From: a phage
Strand: one strand, 5' to 3'
Sequence record: PZ445429.1
Length of the DNA: 64,000 nt
Positions within the stretch are counted from its first letter, which is position 1, and each line of letters starts with the position of its first letter. Shown here one piece after another: positions 1,318-64,000 of this stretch. The notes under the pieces were generated by a model that saw only the letters and a program-made list of their open reading frames with translations, searched no databases and was not told where the DNA came from. The translations under genes and the position numbers were made by a program.

Positions 1318-1431
1318 ATAAGTATAGGATGGGATACTACTCAGTTGGTATCCCATTCCTGCATTTTAAAATCCCCTTTACAAATTCGACATGATTATGT
1401 ATACTATATTCATACAGTTGAGGAGAATACT

Positions 1432-1869
1432 GTGGCAGGAAATGTAAAATATAAACGTGATGCTATATCACTCATGCGAGACGGTATAAAAAGTCAATAT
1501 AAAAAAGCCGATCGCTGCGAAATCTGTGGTTGTGGTGAAGAATTAGAGCTTCATCATTACCATACAGTGTCTCTACTAGTTAAAAAATTTGCTAAAGAAC
1601 TCCAATTGGATTTCACTGACGAAGAAACAGTCCTCTCAAATAGGACGGCATTCTATGAAAGATATAGGCATGAGCTAGTAGATGACACTGTTACCCTTTG
1701 TGTCCACCATCACCAACTATTACATAAGGTGTACACTAAAGAACCTCCCCTTTTCTCTGCTAATAAGCAGAAGGCATGGGTTCTTAAACAAAAGGAAAAG
1801 CTACAGAATCCTCAAGAAAAGACACAAGTCAAGACTGAAACTAAATCAGGATTCGCAAGGTTCTTATAA
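1432..1869 (+). CDS. HNH endonuclease (free-standing, between terminase and portal)
   Basis: CEICGCG...HHYH...CVHHHQLLH zinc/HNH motifs; GAGGAG RBS at 1420-1425 followed by in-frame GTG at 1432 (ORF track begins at 1345 with upstream ATG; true start uncertain). Confidence 0.7.
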   Translation: MAGNVKYKRDAISLMRDGIKSQYKKADRCEICGCGEELELHHYHTVSLLVKKFAKELQLDFTDEETVLSNRTAFYERYRHELVDDTVTLCVHHHQLLHKVYTKEPPLFSANKQKAWVLKQKEKLQNPQEKTQVKTETKSGFARFL

Positions 1870-3086
1870 TGGGTTTAAAAAGCTGGATTACTGAAAAGCT
1901 AAATCCGGGTCAACGTATTATAAGAGACATGGAACCAGTTAGTCATCGCACTAACCGTAAGCCATTTACCACTGGACAAGCCTACAGTAAGATTGAGATT
2001 CTCAACCGAACTGCTAACATGGTTATCGATAGTGCGGCGGAGTGTTCTTATACTGTCGGAGATAAATATAATATTGTCACGTACGCTAATGGCGTCAAGG
2101 CAAAGACTCTAGACACTCTCTTAAATGTACGACCTAATCCATTCATGGATATAAGCACATTCCGTAGACTTGTAGTCACTGACCTACTTTTTGAGGGTTG
2201 TGCATACATCTATTGGGATGGCACAGCACTTTACCATGTCCCTGCTGCACTAATGCAAGTAGAGGCAGATGCCAATAAGTTTATCAAAAAATTCATATTT
2301 AATAACCAGATAGACTATCGCGTAGATGAGATTATCTTTATAAAGGATAACAGTTACGTGTGTGGCACAAACTCCCAAATTTCTGGACAATCTCGTGTTG
2401 CTACAGTTATTGACTCTCTTGAGAAGCGTTCTAAAATGCTTAACTTTAAAGAGAAGTTCCTCGATAACGGCACTGTGATTGGTCTTATTCTTGAGACGGA
2501 TGAAATCCTGAACAAGAAATTGCGTGAGCGTAAACAAGAAGAATTACAACTCGATTATAATCCTAGTACGGGTCAGTCTACTGTCCTGATTCTAGATGGT
2601 GGTATGAAAGCAAAACCGTACTCCCAAATATCCTCTTTTAAAGATCTAGACTTCAAGGAAGATATCGAAGGATTTAATAAATCCATCTGTCTTGCCTTTG
2701 GTGTTCCGCAAGTGTTACTTGATGGTGGTAATAATGCTAACATTCGACCAAACATCGAATTGTTCTATTACATGACTATCATTCCTATGCTGAACAAGCT
2801 GACTAGTTCTCTTACTTTCTTCTTTGGCTACAAGGTTACTCCTAATACTAAGGAAGTAGCTGCACTGACGCCAGATAAAGAAGCTGAGGCTAAACATTTA
2901 ACCTCTTTGGTTAATAACGGTATCATGACTGGTAACGAGGCTCGTGAAGAGCTTAACCTTGAACCTTTAGATGATGAGCAGATGAATAAGATTCGTATTC
3001 CTGCTAACGTTGCTGGTTCTGCAACAGGTGTATCTGGTCAAGAAGGTGGTAGACCGCAAGGCACTGCCGATGGGGATAAAGAATGA
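1869..3086 (+). CDS. Portal protein (T5 pb7-like, 405 aa)
   Basis: Size and position after terminase; start overlaps stop of upstream ORF; conserved order portal-decoration-protease-capsid. Confidence 0.8.
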   Translation: MGLKSWITEKLNPGQRIIRDMEPVSHRTNRKPFTTGQAYSKIEILNRTANMVIDSAAECSYTVGDKYNIVTYANGVKAKTLDTLLNVRPNPFMDISTFRRLVVTDLLFEGCAYIYWDGTALYHVPAALMQVEADANKFIKKFIFNNQIDYRVDEIIFIKDNSYVCGTNSQISGQSRVATVIDSLEKRSKMLNFKEKFLDNGTVIGLILETDEILNKKLRERKQEELQLDYNPSTGQSTVLILDGGMKAKPYSQISSFKDLDFKEDIEGFNKSICLAFGVPQVLLDGGNNANIRPNIELFYYMTIIPMLNKLTSSLTFFFGYKVTPNTKEVAALTPDKEAEAKHLTSLVNNGIMTGNEAREELNLEPLDDEQMNKIRIPANVAGSATGVSGQEGGRPQGTADGDKE

Positions 3087-3673
3087 TTGATTATGATGGT
3101 CTAAAGGCCATTTTTGGTGAAAAGCTGCCAGAATCTCATATCTTCTTTGCTACGGTTGCAGCACACAAGTTCGTTCCAAACTATGCTACTCTACGTAAAG
3201 AGTTTGGAATGACCACTGCACATACCAACCGCAAGGTTTGGAATAAGTTCAAAGAAGCATACGAAGTTACTGCTCCGGTTGTTCCAAACTATGCTACTCT
3301 ACGTAAAGAGTTTGGAATGACCACTGCACATACCAACCGCAAGGTTTGGAATAAGTTCAAAGAAGCATACGAAGTTACTGCTCCGGTTGTTCCGGCTATA
3401 GCTTTCACGAAGAATCTGGCTAAAACTCTAGCTGTTGATACTGGTGCAGCAATTAATCTGGGCGTAACAGTTACTGGTGGTACTGCACCATATACTTATG
3501 CTTGGACTAAAGACGGTTCTCCACTTAGTGGTGTTACTGGCCCTAATTTCAACAAAGCTACAGCTGCTGCAGAAGATGCTGGTACTTACAAAGTTGTTGT
3601 AACGGATAGCAAATCTACTTCCATTACTTCTAATGAGTGTGTAACAACTATCAACCCTGCGCTGGGGGCTTAA
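3083..3673 (+). CDS. Capsid decoration protein with C-terminal Ig-like domain (T5 pb10-like), carrying an internal 36-aa tandem duplication
   Basis: C-terminal Ig-like signature (TVTGGTAPYTYAWTKDGSPLSGVTGPNF...AGTYKVVVTD); position between portal and protease; 196 aa, which is 160 aa without the duplicated unit. Confidence 0.7.
   Translation: MIDYDGLKAIFGEKLPESHIFFATVAAHKFVPNYATLRKEFGMTTAHTNRKVWNKFKEAYEVTAPVVPNYATLRKEFGMTTAHTNRKVWNKFKEAYEVTAPVVPAIAFTKNLAKTLAVDTGAAINLGVTVTGGTAPYTYAWTKDGSPLSGVTGPNFNKATAAAEDAGTYKVVVTDSKSTSITSNECVTTINPALGA
3173..3388. repeat. Perfect 2 x 108-bp tandem direct repeat inside the decoration-protein CDS
   Basis: Unit gttccaaactatgctactctacgtaaagag...gctccggtt at 3173-3280 is repeated identically at 3281-3388; in frame (36 codons: VPNYATLRKEFGMTTAHTNRKVWNKFKEAYEVTAPV x2). 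Confidence 0.95.
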
Positions 3674-3676
3674 TAA

Positions 3677-4309
3677 ATGACAAATGCTGCTATTGACTAT
3701 AACAAGTTAAAATCAGCACCGGTTCATTTAGACGCTTACATTAAGTCTATTGATAGCGAATCCAAAGAGGGTGTTGTAAAAATCCGTGGATTCGCTAATA
3801 CAATTAGTAAAGATCGCGCTGGTGACGTAATTCCTGCTTCGGCATGGAAAACGTCTAATGCACTTGCTAACTACATGAAAAACCCGATTATTCTTTTCGG
3901 CCACGACCATCGTCGTCCAATCGGCAAGTGTATTGATCTTAACCCTACTGAAATGGGTCTCGAAATTGAATGCGAGATTTATGAAAGTTCTGATCCAGCT
4001 ATCTTCTCACTAATTAAAAACGGTGTACTGAAAACCTTCAGTATCGGATTCCGCTGCCTAGACGCAGAATGGGATGAAGCTACTGACATATTTATTATTA
4101 AAGATTTAGAACTATACGAAGTTTCGGTAGTTTCTGTACCTTGTAATCAGGACTCAACGTTCAACCTCGCTAAGAGTATGAATGGCCACGATTACACTGA
4201 ATGGCGCAAATCTTTTACTGCAACAAGTTCTAAGGCTGTCCCAGCTCAAGAACGTAATCTTTCTGAACTAGAAAAACTTGCGATAGCTTTAGGCTACGTT
4301 AAAGAATAA
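3677..4309 (+). CDS. Prohead maturation protease (T5 pb11-like, 210 aa)
   Basis: Size identical to T5 pb11; sits directly upstream of major capsid gene. Confidence 0.75.
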   Translation: MTNAAIDYNKLKSAPVHLDAYIKSIDSESKEGVVKIRGFANTISKDRAGDVIPASAWKTSNALANYMKNPIILFGHDHRRPIGKCIDLNPTEMGLEIECEIYESSDPAIFSLIKNGVLKTFSIGFRCLDAEWDEATDIFIIKDLELYEVSVVSVPCNQDSTFNLAKSMNGHDYTEWRKSFTATSSKAVPAQERNLSELEKLAIALGYVKE

Positions 4310-4326: not shown

Positions 4327-5703
4327 ATGACTATTGATATTAATAAGCTGAAGGAAGAACTTGGTCTGGGTGATCTGGCTAAATCTCTGGAAGGTCTGAC
4401 TGCTGCTCAGAAAGCTGCGGAAGCTAAGCGTCTGCGTGAAGAGCAGGAAGAAAAAGAATTGGCTCGTATGAACGACCTAGTATCTAAAGCTGTTGGTGAA
4501 GACCGTAAGCGTCTGGAAGAAGCTCTGGATCTGGTTAAGAACCTGGATGAGAAGTCTAAGAAGAGCGCAGAACTGTTTGCACAGACTGTAGAAAAGCAAC
4601 AGGAAACCATCGTTGGTCTTCAGGACGAAATCAAGTCTCTGTTGGCAGCTCGTGAAGGTCGTTCCTTCGTTGGTGATAGCGTAGCTAAAGCTCTTTATGG
4701 CACTCAGGATGTTTTCGAAGATGAAGTTGAGAAACTGGTTCTTCTGTCTTATATGATGGAGAAAGACGTATTCGAAACTGAACATGGTAAGGCTCACGTT
4801 AAAGCTGTTAACGGTTCTTCTTCCGTTTCCATGTCTAGCGAAGCATACGAAACTATCTTCTCTACCCGTATTATCCGTGACCTGCAGAAGGAACTGGTAG
4901 TTGGCGCACTGTTCGATGAACTGCCAATGTCCAGCAAAATCCTTACTATGCTCGTTGAACCAGAAGCTGGTCGTGCTACTTGGGTAGATGCTTCCAAATT
5001 CGGTACTGACGAAACTGTTGGTGACGAAGTTAAAGGTCAACTGACTGAAATCAGCTTCAAAACTTACAAGCTGGCTGCTAAATCCTTCATCACTGATGAA
5101 ACTGAAGAAGATGCAATCTTCTCCCTGCTGCCTCTGCTGCGTAAGCGTCTGATCGAAGCACACGCTGTTTCTATCGAAGAAGCTTTCATGTCTGGTAATG
5201 GTACTGGTCAGCCTAAGGGTCTGCTGAAACTGGCTGCTGATGATGGTGCTAAGGTTGTTACCGAAGCTAAAGCTGACGGTTCTGTTCTGGTAACTGCTAA
5301 GACTATCTCCAAGCTGCGTCGTAAACTGGGCCGTCACGGTCTGAAACTGAGCAAACTGGTACTGATCGTATCTATGGATGCTTACTACGATCTGCTGGAA
5401 GATGAAGAATGGCAGGATGTTGCCCAGGTTGGTAACGATGCTGTTAAACTGCAGGGTCAGGTTGGTCGTATTTACGGTCTGCCGGTTGTAGTTTCTGAGT
5501 ACTTCCCAGCTAAAGCTGCTTCCGCTGAATTCGCAGTTATTGTTTATAAAGATAACTTCGTAATGCCGCGTCAGCGTGCCGTTACTGTTGAACGTGAGCG
5601 CCAAGCTGGCAAACAGCGTGACGCATACTACGTTACCCAGCGTGTTAACCTGCAACGTTACTTCGAAAACGGCGTTGTATCTGGTGCTTACGCTGCATCT
5701 TAA
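4327..5703 (+). CDS. Major capsid protein precursor (T5 pb8-like, 458 aa) with N-terminal coiled-coil scaffold (delta) domain
   Basis: 458 aa; N-terminal about 150 aa charged coiled-coil (scaffolding-like), HK97-fold-like remainder; strongly host-optimised codon usage (ctg/cgt/ggt) suggesting very high expression; followed by terminator. Confidence 0.85.
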   Translation: MTIDINKLKEELGLGDLAKSLEGLTAAQKAAEAKRLREEQEEKELARMNDLVSKAVGEDRKRLEEALDLVKNLDEKSKKSAELFAQTVEKQQETIVGLQDEIKSLLAAREGRSFVGDSVAKALYGTQDVFEDEVEKLVLLSYMMEKDVFETEHGKAHVKAVNGSSSVSMSSEAYETIFSTRIIRDLQKELVVGALFDELPMSSKILTMLVEPEAGRATWVDASKFGTDETVGDEVKGQLTEISFKTYKLAAKSFITDETEEDAIFSLLPLLRKRLIEAHAVSIEEAFMSGNGTGQPKGLLKLAADDGAKVVTEAKADGSVLVTAKTISKLRRKLGRHGLKLSKLVLIVSMDAYYDLLEDEEWQDVAQVGNDAVKLQGQVGRIYGLPVVVSEYFPAKAASAEFAVIVYKDNFVMPRQRAVTVERERQAGKQRDAYYVTQRVNLQRYFENGVVSGAYAAS

Positions 5704-20518: not shown

Positions 20519-22557
20519 TGGCACTTAAAACTAAAATTATTGTACAGCAGATTCTGAACATAGATGACACTACAACTACTGCTAGTAAGTATCCTAAATA
20601 TACAGTAGTTTTAGGTAACTCTATCAGTTCTATTACTGCGGGTGAACTGACTGCGGCTGTGGAATCATCCGCAGCTTCAGCTGCTGCTGCAAAAGATTCT
20701 GAAATTGCAGCAAAATTATCTGAAACTAACGCTAGAGACTCAGAAAATAGAGCTGCTATTTACGCTGATTCTTCTGAAGCTTCTGCTACTCAAGCAGCTA
20801 CTTCTGCTACGGAATCTGAGAGACAAGCTGGATTATCTAAGGCTAGCGCTGAAGAATCCGCTGCATCTGCTACAGAAGCCGGCACACACAAAGATGCGGC
20901 TCAGTTAGCTGCTCAAAATGCTGAAAGAAGTAGAGAACTAGCCGAACAAGCTAAAACTGCTGCTCAACAAGCTCAAGTAGCCGCTGAAACTGCACAAACT
21001 GGTGCAGAAACTGCTAAAGAAGGAGCCGATGCTGCTGCAACAACTGCTGGTGAGCATGCTGCTGCTGCTAAGCAATCAGAACTAAACGCTAAGATTTCTG
21101 AAACTAATGCTGCTGGTTCTGCTACTGAAGCTGGCGATAAAGCTATCGATGCTACTACTGAGGCAGATCGTGCTAAAGCTGAGGCAGATCGTGCTACTCA
21201 GGTTGTTGATGGTAAACTTGATAAAGTAGATATTTCTGGTTTTATCAAAGTTTATAAGACGAAAGCAGAAGCTGATGCTGATGTTGCAAACCGTGTTCTA
21301 GACGAAAAGGTTCTAGTCTGGAATCAAACTGATTCAAAGTACGGTTGGTATAAAGTTGCTGGTACTGCTGAAGCTCCTGTCCTAGAGTTAGTAGAAACCG
21401 AGCAAAAACTCGTATCAATCAACAACGTTCATGCAGATGATGCAGGTAACGTACAGATTACACTTCCGGGTGGTAACCCTTCTCTATGGTTGGGTGAAGT
21501 TACTTGGTTCCCTTATAACAAGGATTCAGGTGTTGGTTACCCTGGTGTTCTACCTGCTGATGGCCGTGAAGTTCTTCGTGTAGACTATCCAGATACTTGG
21601 GAAGCTATTGAAGCTGGTCTGATTCCTTCTGTTTCAGAAGCTGAATGGCAAGCCGGTGCAACTCTCTACTTCTCCACTGGTGACGGTTCTACCACATTCC
21701 GCCTACCAGATATGATGCAAGGACAGGCATTCCGTGCACCAACTAAAGGCGAAGAAGATGCTGGTGCTATCAAGGAACAGATCCCCTATATCACTACTGT
21801 TAACGGAATCAGTCCTGCTGATGATACTGGTGCTATTAAGCTTCCTTACGTGGCAATGGTTAATGGTACTATTGTACCAGATGAGAATGGAAACCTTGCA
21901 TTAGGTAACGTTGTTACCAAAAATATATGGGATGGGGTTAATGGGGAAGTTCTGCTACGTGGTGCCTTTGGTTTGGGTGGTGCAGGTATTGCGCTAAATG
22001 AACCTAATTTAGTATCCTTCTTCAAGGCTATGCGTGCCTTTGGTTCTGGTTATTATCGTAATGATACAGGTACTGAGGGCCTACCATCATACTCCGCTGG
22101 ATTCTACTCTAAGACTGGTGATACGCACTCCTTTATCTGTCCACAGTACTCAAGTGGTATTGTTTTTGTTGGTACTATTAATGATAATGTACTTGATGGT
22201 GAATCACCTGTGGTACATACTAATATTCTTTATGGTACTGCAAATAAGCCTGATTTAAATAATGATACTCAAGGAATTCTTGGTATTAGTAAAGGTGGTA
22301 CAGGGGCGACGAATGCAGCAGGTGCAAGGGCTAACATAGAATTAGGAGAAACTAATACACCTAGCTTTGCCGAAGTTGCTGCTAGCTTATATAATGGATT
22401 CAATTCTGGTCTGTTATATATGAGGAATCACGATGCTTCTAGAAACTTAATTTCTTATTCCTCTATTTACAACGAACTTCAATCTGGTGTAGCGAAAACA
22501 ACAATAAGGACTACAAACTCAACCACCGATAAAACAGCCTTCTACCAGTTTGACTAA
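20518..22557 (+). CDS. Lateral (L-shaped) tail fibre protein, N-terminal part (LtfA-like), ending at an in-frame TAA
   Basis: Ala-rich heptad coiled-coil N-terminus typical of T5 pb1-type fibres; ends at TAA 22555-22557; the same frame continues open into the next ORF. Confidence 0.7.
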   Translation: MALKTKIIVQQILNIDDTTTTASKYPKYTVVLGNSISSITAGELTAAVESSAASAAAAKDSEIAAKLSETNARDSENRAAIYADSSEASATQAATSATESERQAGLSKASAEESAASATEAGTHKDAAQLAAQNAERSRELAEQAKTAAQQAQVAAETAQTGAETAKEGADAAATTAGEHAAAAKQSELNAKISETNAAGSATEAGDKAIDATTEADRAKAEADRATQVVDGKLDKVDISGFIKVYKTKAEADADVANRVLDEKVLVWNQTDSKYGWYKVAGTAEAPVLELVETEQKLVSINNVHADDAGNVQITLPGGNPSLWLGEVTWFPYNKDSGVGYPGVLPADGREVLRVDYPDTWEAIEAGLIPSVSEAEWQAGATLYFSTGDGSTTFRLPDMMQGQAFRAPTKGEEDAGAIKEQIPYITTVNGISPADDTGAIKLPYVAMVNGTIVPDENGNLALGNVVTKNIWDGVNGEVLLRGAFGLGGAGIALNEPNLVSFFKAMRAFGSGYYRNDTGTEGLPSYSAGFYSKTGDTHSFICPQYSSGIVFVGTINDNVLDGESPVVHTNILYGTANKPDLNNDTQGILGISKGGTGATNAAGARANIELGETNTPSFAEVAASLYNGFNSGLLYMRNHDASRNLISYSSIYNELQSGVAKTTIRTTNSTTDKTAFYQFD

Positions 22558-40571: not shown

Positions 40572-40591
40572 ATTTCTTCCTTATCAATTTA

Positions 40592-40632
40592 TATAAATAT
40601 TATAGCAAGTATTTAAGCATTTAGCAACTACA
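40592..40632 (-). promoter_or_regulatory. sigma70-type promoter (TTGCTA, 17 nt, TATAAT) for ligB-side operon
   Basis: On - strand: -35 at 40622-40627, -10 at 40599-40604; A-tract upstream. Confidence 0.6.
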
Positions 40633-41745: not shown

Positions 41746-41953
41746 CTGCGATTTCCATTTTGAGTTCTTTACTATACTGTGCAGCCATACCAGCTAAATC
41801 AGCAGCTTCTTTCAACCACGCATCTTTGTACGCTTTCTGGTTTGGAGTGCCGATACTATCCTGGTAATTGATTCTTGCTATGGAGAGCAAATTAAGTTTT
41901 GCTTGAATCTTTGGAAGTGTTATTGTCATTGCCATAATTGATCCTCTCATCAA
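41735..41953 (-). CDS. Hypothetical protein (72 aa)
   Basis: Small ORF with RBS-containing leader downstream of promoter. Confidence 0.45.
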   Translation of the reverse strand: MMRGSIMAMTITLPKIQAKLNLLSIARINYQDSIGTPNQKAYKDAWLKEAADLAGMAAQYSKELKMEIADDE

Positions 41954-41957
41954 TTTA

Positions 41958-41998
41958 TATAAATATTATATATGAAAACTGAGTCGAAAGCAAGTACA
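41958..41998 (-). promoter_or_regulatory. sigma70-type promoter (TTGCTT, 17 nt, TATAAT)
   Basis: On - strand: -35 at 41988-41993, -10 at 41965-41970; conserved leader with GAGAGGA-type RBS. Confidence 0.6.
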
Positions 41999-63993: not shown

Positions 63994-64000
63994 ATTCATA

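What the first reader, a model, noticed from the sequence alone, without database searches (positions are those of the whole stretch)
3173..3388. Perfect 108-bp in-frame tandem duplication inside the capsid decoration-protein gene
Two identical 108-bp units (3173-3280 and 3281-3388) duplicate 36 residues in the N-terminal part of the Ig-domain decoration protein, upstream of the Ig-like domain. 100 percent identity implies a very recent event, or an assembly artefact. The junctions carry gttcc microhomology, which suggests replication slippage or illegitimate recombination. The extra module could alter capsid binding or display.
Basis: seen in the sequence. Interest (0 to 1): 0.6.

Follow-up and report, generated by a model that had tools for sequence, protein, structure and literature searches.

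The report
Recent duplication inside phage decoration gene
One T5-like coliphage isolate (IrmaTschudi/Bas28) carries a perfect in-frame 108-bp tandem duplication that doubles two helices of the capsid-anchoring domain of its dispensable head-decoration protein; it is present in the deposited sequence, was found in no relative, and is most likely a very recent replication-slippage event of small consequence.

Summary
Units 3173-3280 and 3281-3388 are identical, and the identity runs on 5 nt (GTTCC) to 3393. The gene (3083-3673, 196 aa) encodes a T5 pb10-type head decoration protein and lies between the portal and prohead-protease genes. The window is Escherichia phage IrmaTschudi (Bas28, MZ501076).

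The closest relatives aligned or listed carry exactly one unit (160 aa). The novel junction is absent from 50,697 phage genomes, IMG/VR, GTDB genomes and JGI metagenomes. None of 177 family proteins, and no genuine pb10 representative among 1.84 billion, has a doubled N-domain. GTTCC occurs only twice in the ancestral gene, exactly at the two breakpoints (chance about 1%).

The duplicated residues 31-66 are not a separate module. They are helices alpha4-alpha5 plus the start of the linker of the five-helix capsid-binding domain.

Best reading: a private, very recent microhomology-mediated slippage duplication. Copy 1 probably completes the native fold, and copy 2 is an orphan spacer before the Ig domain. 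pb10 is dispensable under standard conditions, so the change is probably near-neutral.

An assembly artefact (about 12%) cannot be excluded without reads. This is a curiosity and a natural folding "choice" experiment, not a new system.

The parts
3083..3673 (+). Gene for the pb10-type head decoration protein, 196 aa (deposited as QXV80358.1, 'head decoration protein', phage IrmaTschudi)
   Evidence: ORF list. Pfam PF21393 plus Ig domains. PDB T5 pb10 8zvi/5lxl/5lxk. Exact-sequence look-up. It lies between the portal gene (1869-3086) and the prohead protease gene (3677-4309), followed by the major capsid protein gene (4327-5703).
3083..3172 (+). Unduplicated N-terminal part of the capsid-binding domain: residues 1-30, helices alpha1-alpha3, including the conserved F-G-x2-L-P...F-F surface around alpha2
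   Evidence: Ungapped alignment to T5 pb10 residues 1-68. Helix boundaries from Vernhes 2017 and the T5 cryo-EM paper.
3173..3280 (+). Repeat unit 1: residues 31-66, covering the alpha3-alpha4 loop, helix alpha4, helix alpha5 and the first linker residues
3281..3388 (+). Repeat unit 2: residues 67-102, identical to unit 1. The novel junction lies at 3280|3281 (CCGGTT|GTTCCAAAC).
   Evidence: The junction is absent from all collections searched.
3389..3393 (+). Third GTTCC, the right-hand breakpoint microhomology. The same pentamer starts each unit (3173-3177, 3281-3285).
   Evidence: 113-nt identity run. Single-copy relatives show AAGTTC-GTTCC-AAAC and CCGGTT-GTTCC-GGCT exactly 108 nt apart. 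GTTCC occurs only at these two places in the ancestral 483-nt gene.
3171..3212 (.). Inverted repeat (hairpin potential) overlapping the left breakpoint: arms 3171-3182 and 3201-3212, 12 nt, 92% complementary, 18-nt loop. It is repeated in unit 2 (3277-3290 / 3309-3322).
   Evidence: the repeat finder I5 and I3. The stem is present in the minimum-free-energy DNA fold of the single-copy ancestor-like sequence, where the 159-nt region has z = -1.9. Its role in the slippage is an inference.
3389..3670 (+). Pro/Val-rich linker remainder and C-terminal Ig-like display domain (residues 103-196)
   Evidence: Pfam Ig_3/Ig_2/I-set. 5lxk match to residues 105-194. AlphaFold pLDDT above 90 across this part. 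Foldseek hits to Ig domains of the phage N4 and Moo19 decoration proteins and T5 pb10 CTD.

Best explanation
This is a real, private and very recent tandem duplication in the genome of Escherichia phage IrmaTschudi (Bas28). During replication, a nascent strand that had just copied the downstream GTTCC re-annealed to the identical GTTCC 108 nt upstream and copied the interval a second time (slipped-strand or template-switch duplication at a 5-nt microhomology). A hairpin-forming inverted repeat at the left breakpoint may have helped. The result is in frame. It doubles residues 31-66 of the pb10-type decoration protein, which are helices alpha4-alpha5 and the start of the linker of the five-helix capsid-binding domain. 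One alpha1-alpha3 platform now has two identical alpha4-alpha5 hairpins available, so folding is a mutually exclusive choice. Connectivity favours the contiguous copy 1 completing the native domain, because using copy 2 would require closing a loop about 36 residues long, at an estimated cost of roughly 2.4 kcal/mol. That leaves copy 2 as an orphan, partly helical, net +3 charged 36-residue spacer that lengthens the tether to the Ig-like display domain. The protein probably still docks at hexamer centres. Because pb10 is dispensable under ordinary conditions, the allele is probably near-neutral and was fixed by the single-plaque bottleneck of isolation rather than by selection. What is shown: the repeat, its uniqueness, the breakpoints, and the domain mapping. 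What is inferred: the slippage mechanism, which copy folds, retained binding, and neutrality.
For: The repeat is perfect and unique in the window. Aligned relatives (CitS1, SuperGirl/Bas29, Ace) have exactly one unit and carry GTTCC at both future breakpoints. GTTCC occurs only at those two sites in the gene. Microhomology of 5 nt or more is expected for only 1.1% of arbitrarily placed 108-bp duplications. All 40 best phage records span 893-895 bp against the 1001-bp query. Over 25 kb the net length difference from the nearest genome, Ace, is exactly 108 bp. A 40-nt junction megablast found nothing in 50,697 phage records. The junction pattern is also absent from IMG/VR, GTDB genomes and JGI metagenomes. 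Family protein lengths are 156-164, 245-249 or 107 aa, and only this protein has an N-domain internal repeat among 177 sequences. In the 1.84-billion-representative search, every genuine pb10 hit has one N-domain stretch at its N-terminus. The CitS1 gene differs by a single nucleotide apart from the duplication, so the event postdates a very shallow split. Domain mapping: T5 pb10 helices are alpha4 34-41 and alpha5 49-60, and 7 of the 16 core residues lie in the duplicated segment. Residues 2-68 are ordered on the capsid. The N-domain alone, and N-domain fusions to mCherry or ovalbumin, keep picomolar affinity, so material C-terminal to the domain is tolerated. T5 lacking pb10 is viable and differs in stability only under harsh ionic conditions. 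AlphaFold predicts both copies as helical. Confidence for alpha1-alpha3 drops from 66-74 in a single-copy control with the same MSA set to 38-49 with the duplication, as expected for an ambiguous fold. AlphaFold models are known to handle duplicated-segment systems poorly. Sequencing coverage was 203x with an overlap-type assembler, which can only build the junction from reads that contain it.
Against: No raw reads, long reads or PCR data were available, so the copy number rests on one deposited assembly. The exact 196-aa protein is on record from that one contig only. The BASEL paper does not mention this locus. Which copy folds, whether the protein still binds the capsid, and whether the allele is neutral are all untested. 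The orphan copy exposes seven normally buried hydrophobic residues and could instead destabilise the protein or cause aggregation. The region containing the hairpin is only modestly more stable than shuffled sequence (z = -1.9).
Confidence: 0.55

Rival explanations
1. Assembly or finishing artefact. The phage has one unit, and the second copy was introduced when contig ends were joined or circularised without trimming an overlap, or by a mis-resolved local ambiguity.
For: The copies are 100% identical and the allele exists in a single deposited record. The genome was assembled from short Illumina reads into a circular contig and then re-linearised. Nobody has commented on the locus.
Against: An untrimmed overlap would not be expected to end in a 5-nt microhomology (p about 0.011). 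It would be a multiple of three only 1 time in 3. The repeat lies 3.1 kb from the re-linearisation point at the terminase gene. Coverage was 203x, and an overlap assembler needs reads that contain the novel junction. Assemblers usually collapse tandem repeats rather than create them (general knowledge). No other long perfect repeat is present in the 64-kb window.
Confidence: 0.12
2. The duplication is real but effectively a loss-of-function or hypomorphic allele. Two competing alpha4-alpha5 hairpins and seven exposed core residues frustrate folding of the capsid-binding domain, so decoration is weak or absent. The phage tolerates this because pb10 is non-essential.
For: The association rate of pb10 depends on an intact N-domain structure. 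Double mutants in alpha4 (Y34A-R38E, F36A-R38A/E) alter the CD spectrum and lower kon 10- to 500-fold. AlphaFold confidence for alpha1-alpha3 collapses to 38-49 with the duplication, against 66-74 in the control. T5 without pb10 is viable. Natural 107-aa family members lacking the Ig domain show that the gene tolerates drastic change.
Against: A complete, uninterrupted native N-domain sequence (residues 1-66) is still present, and C-terminal additions as large as ovalbumin leave affinity unchanged. Low AlphaFold confidence is an expected technical effect of duplicated segments and uneven MSA coverage. The reading frame and the Ig domain are preserved.
Confidence: 0.2
3. The duplication is real and adaptive. 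A longer or stiffer tether, or the extra positively charged hairpin contacting the acidic hexamer surface, improves display of the Ig domain or capsid stability, and was selected in sewage or during propagation.
For: The allele is the consensus in the sequenced stock despite the expected instability of perfect tandem repeats (inference). The unit has a net charge of +3, and pb10 association with the capsid is electrostatically driven. The family is otherwise plastic in its display part, with one or two Ig domains, FN3 or Big_2.
Against: No other member among the relatives examined has a comparable N-domain expansion, which argues against a recurrent benefit. Plaque purification gives a simple neutral route to fixation. 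pb10 phenotypes are subtle even for a full deletion.
Confidence: 0.08
4. Heteroplasmy. The duplication exists only in a subpopulation of the sequenced lysate, and the assembler reported the longer path.
For: Tandem duplications arise and collapse at appreciable rates in phage stocks (general knowledge). Only a consensus sequence is available.
Against: A minority junction would normally be out-voted in a 203x consensus.
Confidence: 0.05

Closest known systems
Bacteriophage T5 decoration protein pb10 (164 aa; PDB 5LXL N-domain, 5LXK Ig domain, 8ZVI on capsid)
   Same: Same family (PF21393 plus an Ig domain) and same gene position between portal and prohead protease. Residues 1-68 align without gaps at high identity, so the five helices map directly.
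   Different: T5 and all other members examined have one alpha4-alpha5 pair. Here the pair and the first linker residues are present twice, giving 196 aa. The linker is PVVPA rather than T5's PPAPPAPP.
Single-copy 160-aa Epseptimavirus decoration proteins (CitS1, vB_SenS_SB13, SuperGirl/Bas29, vB_EcoS_Ace)
   Same: Within the gene, 0-7 nucleotide differences outside the duplication (CitS1 has 1). The flanks are identical, including both GTTCC pentamers.
   Different: They lack the second 108-bp unit. They represent the ancestral state.
Two-Ig (245-249 aa), Ig-less (107 aa) and FN3/Big_2-bearing pb10 family variants
   Same: They show that the family naturally varies in length and module content.
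   Different: All of that variation is C-terminal, in the display part. It involves whole, diverged domains. The two Ig domains share runs of at most 8-12 identical residues and look like older duplication or mosaicism. None alters the capsid-binding domain.
Engineered 'alternate frame folding' proteins and tandem-segment duplications (for example calbindin D9k and GFP strand-10 constructs; T4 lysozyme helix duplication, the last from memory)
   Same: A segment belonging to one cooperative fold is present twice, so only one copy can complete the native structure while the other stays as an orphan (principle described in PMC12344692).
   Different: Those are designed, usually circularly permuted with the copies at opposite termini, and carry a distinguishing mutation. 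Here the copies are natural, adjacent and identical, and no switching has been demonstrated.
T4 Hoc
   Same: A monomeric, dispensable decoration protein at hexamer centres with Ig-like display domains. The Ig domain of this protein matches Hoc weakly (3shs, E = 2.8e-4).
   Different: Hoc anchors through its C-terminus and has several Ig domains. There is no homology in the capsid-binding part.

Membership tests
pb10-type (T5-like) head decoration protein | N-terminal capsid-binding domain matching Pfam PF21393 (Phage_pb10_N) | tested here: met
   E = 1.4e-53, 179.5 bits against a cut-off of 27. The best stretch covers residues 2-60 over the full profile, and a second stretch comes from the duplicated part. 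Ungapped match to T5 pb10 residues 1-68.
pb10-type (T5-like) head decoration protein | C-terminal Ig-like display domain joined by a Pro-rich linker | tested here: met
   Ig_3/Ig_2/I-set hits. 5lxk match to residues 105-194. AlphaFold beta-sandwich with pLDDT above 90. Foldseek Ig hits including 5lxk.
pb10-type (T5-like) head decoration protein | Gene located between the portal and prohead-protease genes of a T5-like head module | tested here: met
   Terminase 1-1317, portal 1869-3086, this gene 3083-3673, S78 protease 3677-4309, HK97-fold capsid protein 4327-5703. The order is the same in CitS1, SuperGirl and Ace.
pb10-type (T5-like) head decoration protein | Five-helix N-domain fold (alpha1-alpha5) | tested here: inconclusive
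   The single-copy control model reproduces the five helices at pLDDT 66-82. The duplicated protein gives seven helices with low confidence for alpha1-alpha3 (38-49). No coordinates were available to check packing.
pb10-type (T5-like) head decoration protein | Binds as a monomer at the centre of expanded-capsid hexamers with very high affinity | not testable with these tools
   Known for T5 pb10. Requires a binding assay or virion proteomics for Bas28.
Microhomology-mediated (slipped-strand) tandem duplication | Head-to-tail identical copies with no intervening or filler bases | tested here: met
   Period 108, 100% identity, no indels, copies abut at 3280|3281.
Microhomology-mediated (slipped-strand) tandem duplication | A short direct repeat sits at both breakpoints in the unduplicated ancestor, beyond chance | tested here: met
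   GTTCC lies at both sites in CitS1, SuperGirl and Ace, 108 nt apart. These are its only two occurrences in the gene. The simulated probability of 5 nt or more is 0.011.
Microhomology-mediated (slipped-strand) tandem duplication | Close relatives carry the single-copy state (derived, recent event) | tested here: met
Microhomology-mediated (slipped-strand) tandem duplication | Physical confirmation of two copies in the DNA (reads or PCR) | not testable with these tools
   No read data were accessible. The record itself is not in the annotated collections, and no independent assembly encodes the protein.
Alternate-frame-folding / mutually exclusive folding protein | The duplicated segment is an integral part of a single cooperative domain | tested here: met
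   Residues 31-66 correspond to alpha4, alpha5 and 7 of the 16 core residues of the T5 N-domain.
Alternate-frame-folding / mutually exclusive folding protein | Two alternative native-like states are populated and interconvert | not testable with these tools
   This needs NMR, HDX or proteolysis. AlphaFold output is uninformative for such systems. Not claimed as a member, only as the closest mechanistic analogy.

The most novel reading that the evidence does not exclude
The duplication is real and gives a naturally occurring 'alternate-frame' capsid anchor. The two identical alpha4-alpha5 hairpins exchange on the alpha1-alpha3 platform, or the orphan, net-positive hairpin makes extra contacts with the acidic hexamer surface. 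Either would change decoration kinetics, capsid stability or the reach of the Ig domain in a way that was selected. It would be a first glimpse of how a capsid-binding domain begins to expand.
Probability: 0.07. Interest if true: 0.55.

Novelty: new variant of a known kind. Interest (0 to 1): 0.25.

Why it matters
In itself it matters little. This is a private, probably neutral length polymorphism in a dispensable gene of a well-known family. It has three modest uses.

(1) Quality control for a widely distributed reference phage (BASEL Bas28). Labs that map reads to MZ501076/NC_105115 should know that a perfect 108-bp tandem repeat sits in the decoration gene and may collapse or vary between stocks.

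(2) It is a clean natural example of microhomology-mediated tandem duplication caught before any divergence. The ancestral state is preserved in many relatives.

(3) pb10 is being developed as a picomolar display anchor for T5 capsid-like particles. A natural variant with a doubled alpha4-alpha5 hairpin is a ready-made test of how much the anchor and its tether tolerate, and of which copy a duplicated segment uses when it folds.

Tried and rejected
(1) Ancient two-copy architecture was rejected. The aligned and listed relatives are single-copy and no diverged second copy exists.

(2) A 100-nt junction query in blastn mode was uninformative, because the tool joins the two half-matches of single-copy genomes into one 'place'. 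I replaced it with a 40-nt junction megablast, which a single-copy genome cannot satisfy.

(3) I looked for independent occurrences of the junction in IMG/VR, GTDB genomes and JGI metagenomes and found none. The exact-protein contig look-up also found none.

(4) I tried to open the deposited records MZ501076 and NC_105115 to read the depositor's annotation. They are not in the collections.

(5) AlphaFold could not say which copy completes the fold. The result was low confidence, the MSA covers only copy 2, and no coordinates are exposed. The Foldseek search of the model returned only Ig-domain matches.

(6) P0182 (657 aa) matched the N-domain in 12 stretches. On inspection it is a roughly 52-aa tandem-repeat ORF with a biased, cysteine- and histidine-containing sequence and is not a credible pb10 domain. 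P0189 and P0190 are unrelated repeat proteins near the E-value limit. I rejected these as evidence for natural N-domain arrays.

(7) I considered a regulatory or RNA role for the repeat, a contingency locus, or a new internal start. None is supported: there are only two long units, the Met codon with its SD-like AAAGAG inside the unit lies within the unit that the single-copy relatives also carry, and there are no tRNA genes in the window.

(8) Literature searches for IrmaTschudi or Bas28 found no mention of this gene.

Full report
OBSERVATION. Tandem Repeats Finder reports one outstanding array in the 64-kb window: 3173-3393, period 108, 2.0 copies, 100% matches, no indels, score 442. Every other array scores 78 or less. 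A direct comparison shows that 3173-3280 equals 3281-3388. The period-108 identity continues for five more bases (GTTCC, to 3393) and does not extend leftwards. The next-longest perfect direct repeat anywhere in the window is 22 nt, so chance is not an explanation. The repeat lies in ORF 3083-3673 (+, 196 aa), begins at codon 31 and is in frame. It duplicates VPNYATLRKEFGMTTAHTNRKVWNKFKEAYEVTAPV as residues 31-66 and 67-102.

IDENTITY OF THE GENE AND THE GENOME. The protein matches Pfam PF21393 (decoration protein pb10 N-terminal domain, E = 1.4e-53, two stretches) and Ig-domain families. It also matches the solved structures of T5 pb10: 8zvi full length (2e-57), 5lxl N-domain and 5lxk Ig domain. 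The neighbouring genes are large terminase (1-1317), portal (1869-3086), S78 prohead protease (3677-4309) and HK97-fold major capsid protein (4327-5703). This is the T5-type head module. An exact-sequence look-up identifies the protein as QXV80358.1, 'head decoration protein' of Escherichia phage IrmaTschudi, on a 115,446-bp contig. IrmaTschudi is Bas28 of the BASEL collection, accession MZ501076, isolated from Basel sewage-plant inflow. It was sequenced on an Illumina NextSeq 550 at 203x and assembled with the Geneious assembler. [quoted passage not shown] The window therefore starts at genome position 1, and the repeat is 3.1 kb from the linearisation point. Neither the BASEL paper nor any other paper I could search mentions this gene or the duplication.

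IS IT SHARED? No. In megablast of 2900-3900 against 50,697 phage genomes, all 40 best records (99.8-98.9% identity) match over 893-895 bp of record against 1001 bp of query, which is one unit fewer. Over 25 kb, the nearest genome (vB_EcoS_Ace, 98.3%) is shorter by a net 108 bp. An explicit alignment with CitS1, SuperGirl (Bas29, same laboratory) and Ace shows exactly one unit in each. CitS1 differs from IrmaTschudi by a single nucleotide in the rest of the gene. A 40-nt query centred on the novel junction cannot be matched by a single-copy genome in megablast mode. Such a genome offers at most 25 contiguous nt, and the mode needs an exact 28-mer. That query found nothing in the phage collection. 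A junction pattern found nothing in IMG/VR, in 185,579 GTDB genomes or in JGI metagenomes. In the 5.8-billion-cluster protein collection, homologues are 156-164 aa, 245-249 aa or 107 aa. Reading into ten clusters and scanning all 177 retrieved proteins for internal repeats, only IrmaTschudi's has a repeat in the N-terminal domain. A full HMMER scan of 1.84 billion representatives with the single-copy N-domain gave 18 hits. All genuine hits have one N-domain at the extreme N-terminus. The one 12-stretch hit (P0182) is a biased tandem-repeat ORF, not a pb10 domain. The allele is private to this isolate.

HOW IT AROSE. In the single-copy relatives the two future breakpoints read AAGTTC-GTTCC-AAAC and CCGGTT-GTTCC-GGCT, 108 nt apart. 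GTTCC occurs nowhere else in the 483-nt ancestral gene. I simulated 200,000 arbitrarily placed 108-bp duplications in the de-duplicated window. A boundary microhomology of 5 nt or more arises in 1.1% of them. This is the signature of slipped-strand or template-switch duplication between short direct repeats (an established mechanism; the assignment here is an inference). The left breakpoint also sits in the 5' arm of an inverted repeat (3171-3182 / 3201-3212, 12-nt arms, 92% complementary, 18-nt loop). That stem forms in the minimum-free-energy fold of the ancestral-type DNA (region z = -1.9). A hairpin there could stall synthesis or stabilise the looped-out intermediate, but this is only suggestive. 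The closest relative differs by 1 nt in 483, so zero divergence between the copies is expected for any event younger than that split. The phylogenetic distribution is what makes the event recent. It could have happened in sewage or during isolation.

REAL OR ARTEFACT? I could not see reads, so this remains open. The evidence leans clearly towards a real duplication.
- An untrimmed contig-end overlap would have to end in a 5-nt microhomology by chance (about 1%).
- It would also have to be a multiple of three (1 in 3).
- It would have to lie away from the re-linearisation point.
- At 203x, an overlap assembler can only write the CCGGTT|GTTCCAAAC junction if reads contain it.
- Assemblers tend to collapse perfect tandem repeats, not create them (general knowledge).
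- No other suspicious long repeat exists in the window.
I put artefact at about 12% and a subpopulation variant at about 5%. An independent laboratory has re-sequenced wild-type Bas28 against NC_105115, so the decisive data already exist.

WHAT IT DOES TO THE PROTEIN. T5 pb10 has a five-helix N-terminal capsid-binding domain: alpha1 4-11, alpha2 18-23, alpha3 25-30, alpha4 34-41, alpha5 49-60. It has a Pro-rich linker and an Ig-like domain that does not touch the capsid. The N-domain alone binds hexamer centres with KD of about 1e-12 M. Residues 2-68 are ordered on the virion. IrmaTschudi aligns to T5 without gaps over residues 1-68, so the duplicated residues 31-66 are the alpha3-alpha4 loop, alpha4, alpha5 and the first linker residues. 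They include 7 of the 16 hydrophobic-core positions (V31, L37, F41, V52, W53, F56, Y60). The duplication is not a spare module ahead of the domains. It is half of the anchoring domain, present twice. One alpha1-alpha3 platform, which carries the conserved surface around alpha2, can be completed by either hairpin but not by both. This is the situation exploited in engineered 'alternate frame folding' proteins, where one copy completes the fold and the other remains an orphan.

The two copies are identical, so only connectivity distinguishes them. Using copy 2 requires closing a loop about 36 residues longer between alpha3 and alpha4. A simple polymer estimate puts that cost at about 2.4 kcal/mol, or roughly 50:1 in favour of copy 1 (inference). 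The likely product is therefore a native N-domain (residues 1-66), then a 36-residue orphan segment with helical propensity and a net charge of +3, then the linker and Ig domain.

AlphaFold2 with a 32-sequence MSA models the Ig domain at pLDDT above 90 and predicts both hairpins as helical. Confidence for alpha1-alpha3 is only 38-49. A single-copy control (97% identical outside the duplication, same MSA set) gives the five native helices at 66-82. This fits fold ambiguity. It is also what such predictors do with duplicated segments and with an MSA that covers only one copy, so I treat it as inconclusive.

CONSEQUENCE. Fusions of mCherry or ovalbumin after the T5 N-domain keep picomolar affinity and full occupancy. 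T5 particles without pb10 are viable and differ only under harsh ionic conditions (Tex 47.5 vs 53.8 degrees C at pH 5, 300 mM NaCl, 0.1 mM Mg2+). I therefore expect the 196-aa protein still to decorate the capsid with a longer tether, and the allele to be near-neutral, fixed by plaque purification. Conditional on the duplication being real, I put this at about 60%.

The main biological rival (about 20% overall) is that the orphan hairpin and its exposed core residues impair folding or association. Structure-perturbing alpha4 double mutants lower kon 10- to 500-fold in T5. That would make the allele a tolerated hypomorph. An adaptive reading (about 8%) has no support from relatives. The family's natural plasticity is entirely in the C-terminal display part: one or two diverged Ig domains, none at all, or FN3 or Big_2 domains instead.

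VERDICT. This is a new, undescribed variant of a well-known protein family, produced by a well-known mutational mechanism. It is worth a line in the strain's documentation and a quick PCR, and it is a useful natural construct for work on pb10 display or protein folding. It is not a new biological system. Interest 0.25.

Noticed in passing
window 40583-40604 and 41949-41970: A 22-nt perfect direct repeat, ATCAATTTATATAAATATTATA, is the second-longest exact repeat in the window. Read on the minus strand it is TATAATATTTATATAAATTGAT, followed by an SD-like AAGGAAG/AGAGGA and an ATG. It looks like a shared -10 box plus leader for two minus-strand genes (a T5-type promoter?).
   Followed up: partly
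window 1345-1869 (+): An ORF between the large terminase and portal genes has no Pfam hit but a strong match to PHROG 3497 (unknown function, 3e-68) and a weak HNH-endonuclease match (phrog_8048, 2e-5). It carries a CxxC...HH...CVHHH motif, so it may be an HNH-like homing endonuclease. In SuperGirl the portal gene sits 482 bp further into the record (2351 against 1869), so the DNA upstream of it differs in length between close relatives.
   Followed up: partly
pb10 family proteins P0003-P0007, P0011, P0041, P0037-P0043, P0180 (not in window): The C-terminal display part of the family is highly modular. Forms of 248 aa with two diverged Ig domains sit in the same 90%-identity cluster as 163-aa forms. 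Forms of 107 aa (for example HildyBeyeler/Bas33) lack an intact Ig domain. Others carry FN3 or Big_2 domains, and one 414-aa form has several Big_2-like domains. The capsid-binding domain is invariant in architecture.
   Followed up: partly
P0182 (657 aa, metagenomic representative): A protein made of about 12 tandem copies of a roughly 52-aa unit (…SNHVFFAAMLHSQFVPHIVATV…) matches the pb10 N-domain query at E = 4e-15 in 12 stretches. It looks like a translated satellite-type repeat with chance similarity to the HIFFATVAAHKFVP motif rather than a real homologue.
   Followed up: partly
P0045 (313 aa, JGI metagenome; weak Ig/SprB-repeat hit): It contains a perfect 72-residue internal repeat at an offset of 152 residues. 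This is another apparently very recent large in-frame duplication in an Ig/SprB-repeat protein.
   Followed up: no
window 1-64000: ARAGORN finds no tRNA genes in this half of the genome. The BASEL supplementary table row for Bas28 appears to list 28 tRNAs, so the T5-type tRNA cluster must lie beyond position 64000.
   Followed up: no
window 21145-21198: A 21-nt tandem repeat, 2.5 copies at 81% identity (TRF score 78), is the second-best tandem array in the window. It lies in the tail-gene region and is probably a coding heptad-type repeat.
   Followed up: no
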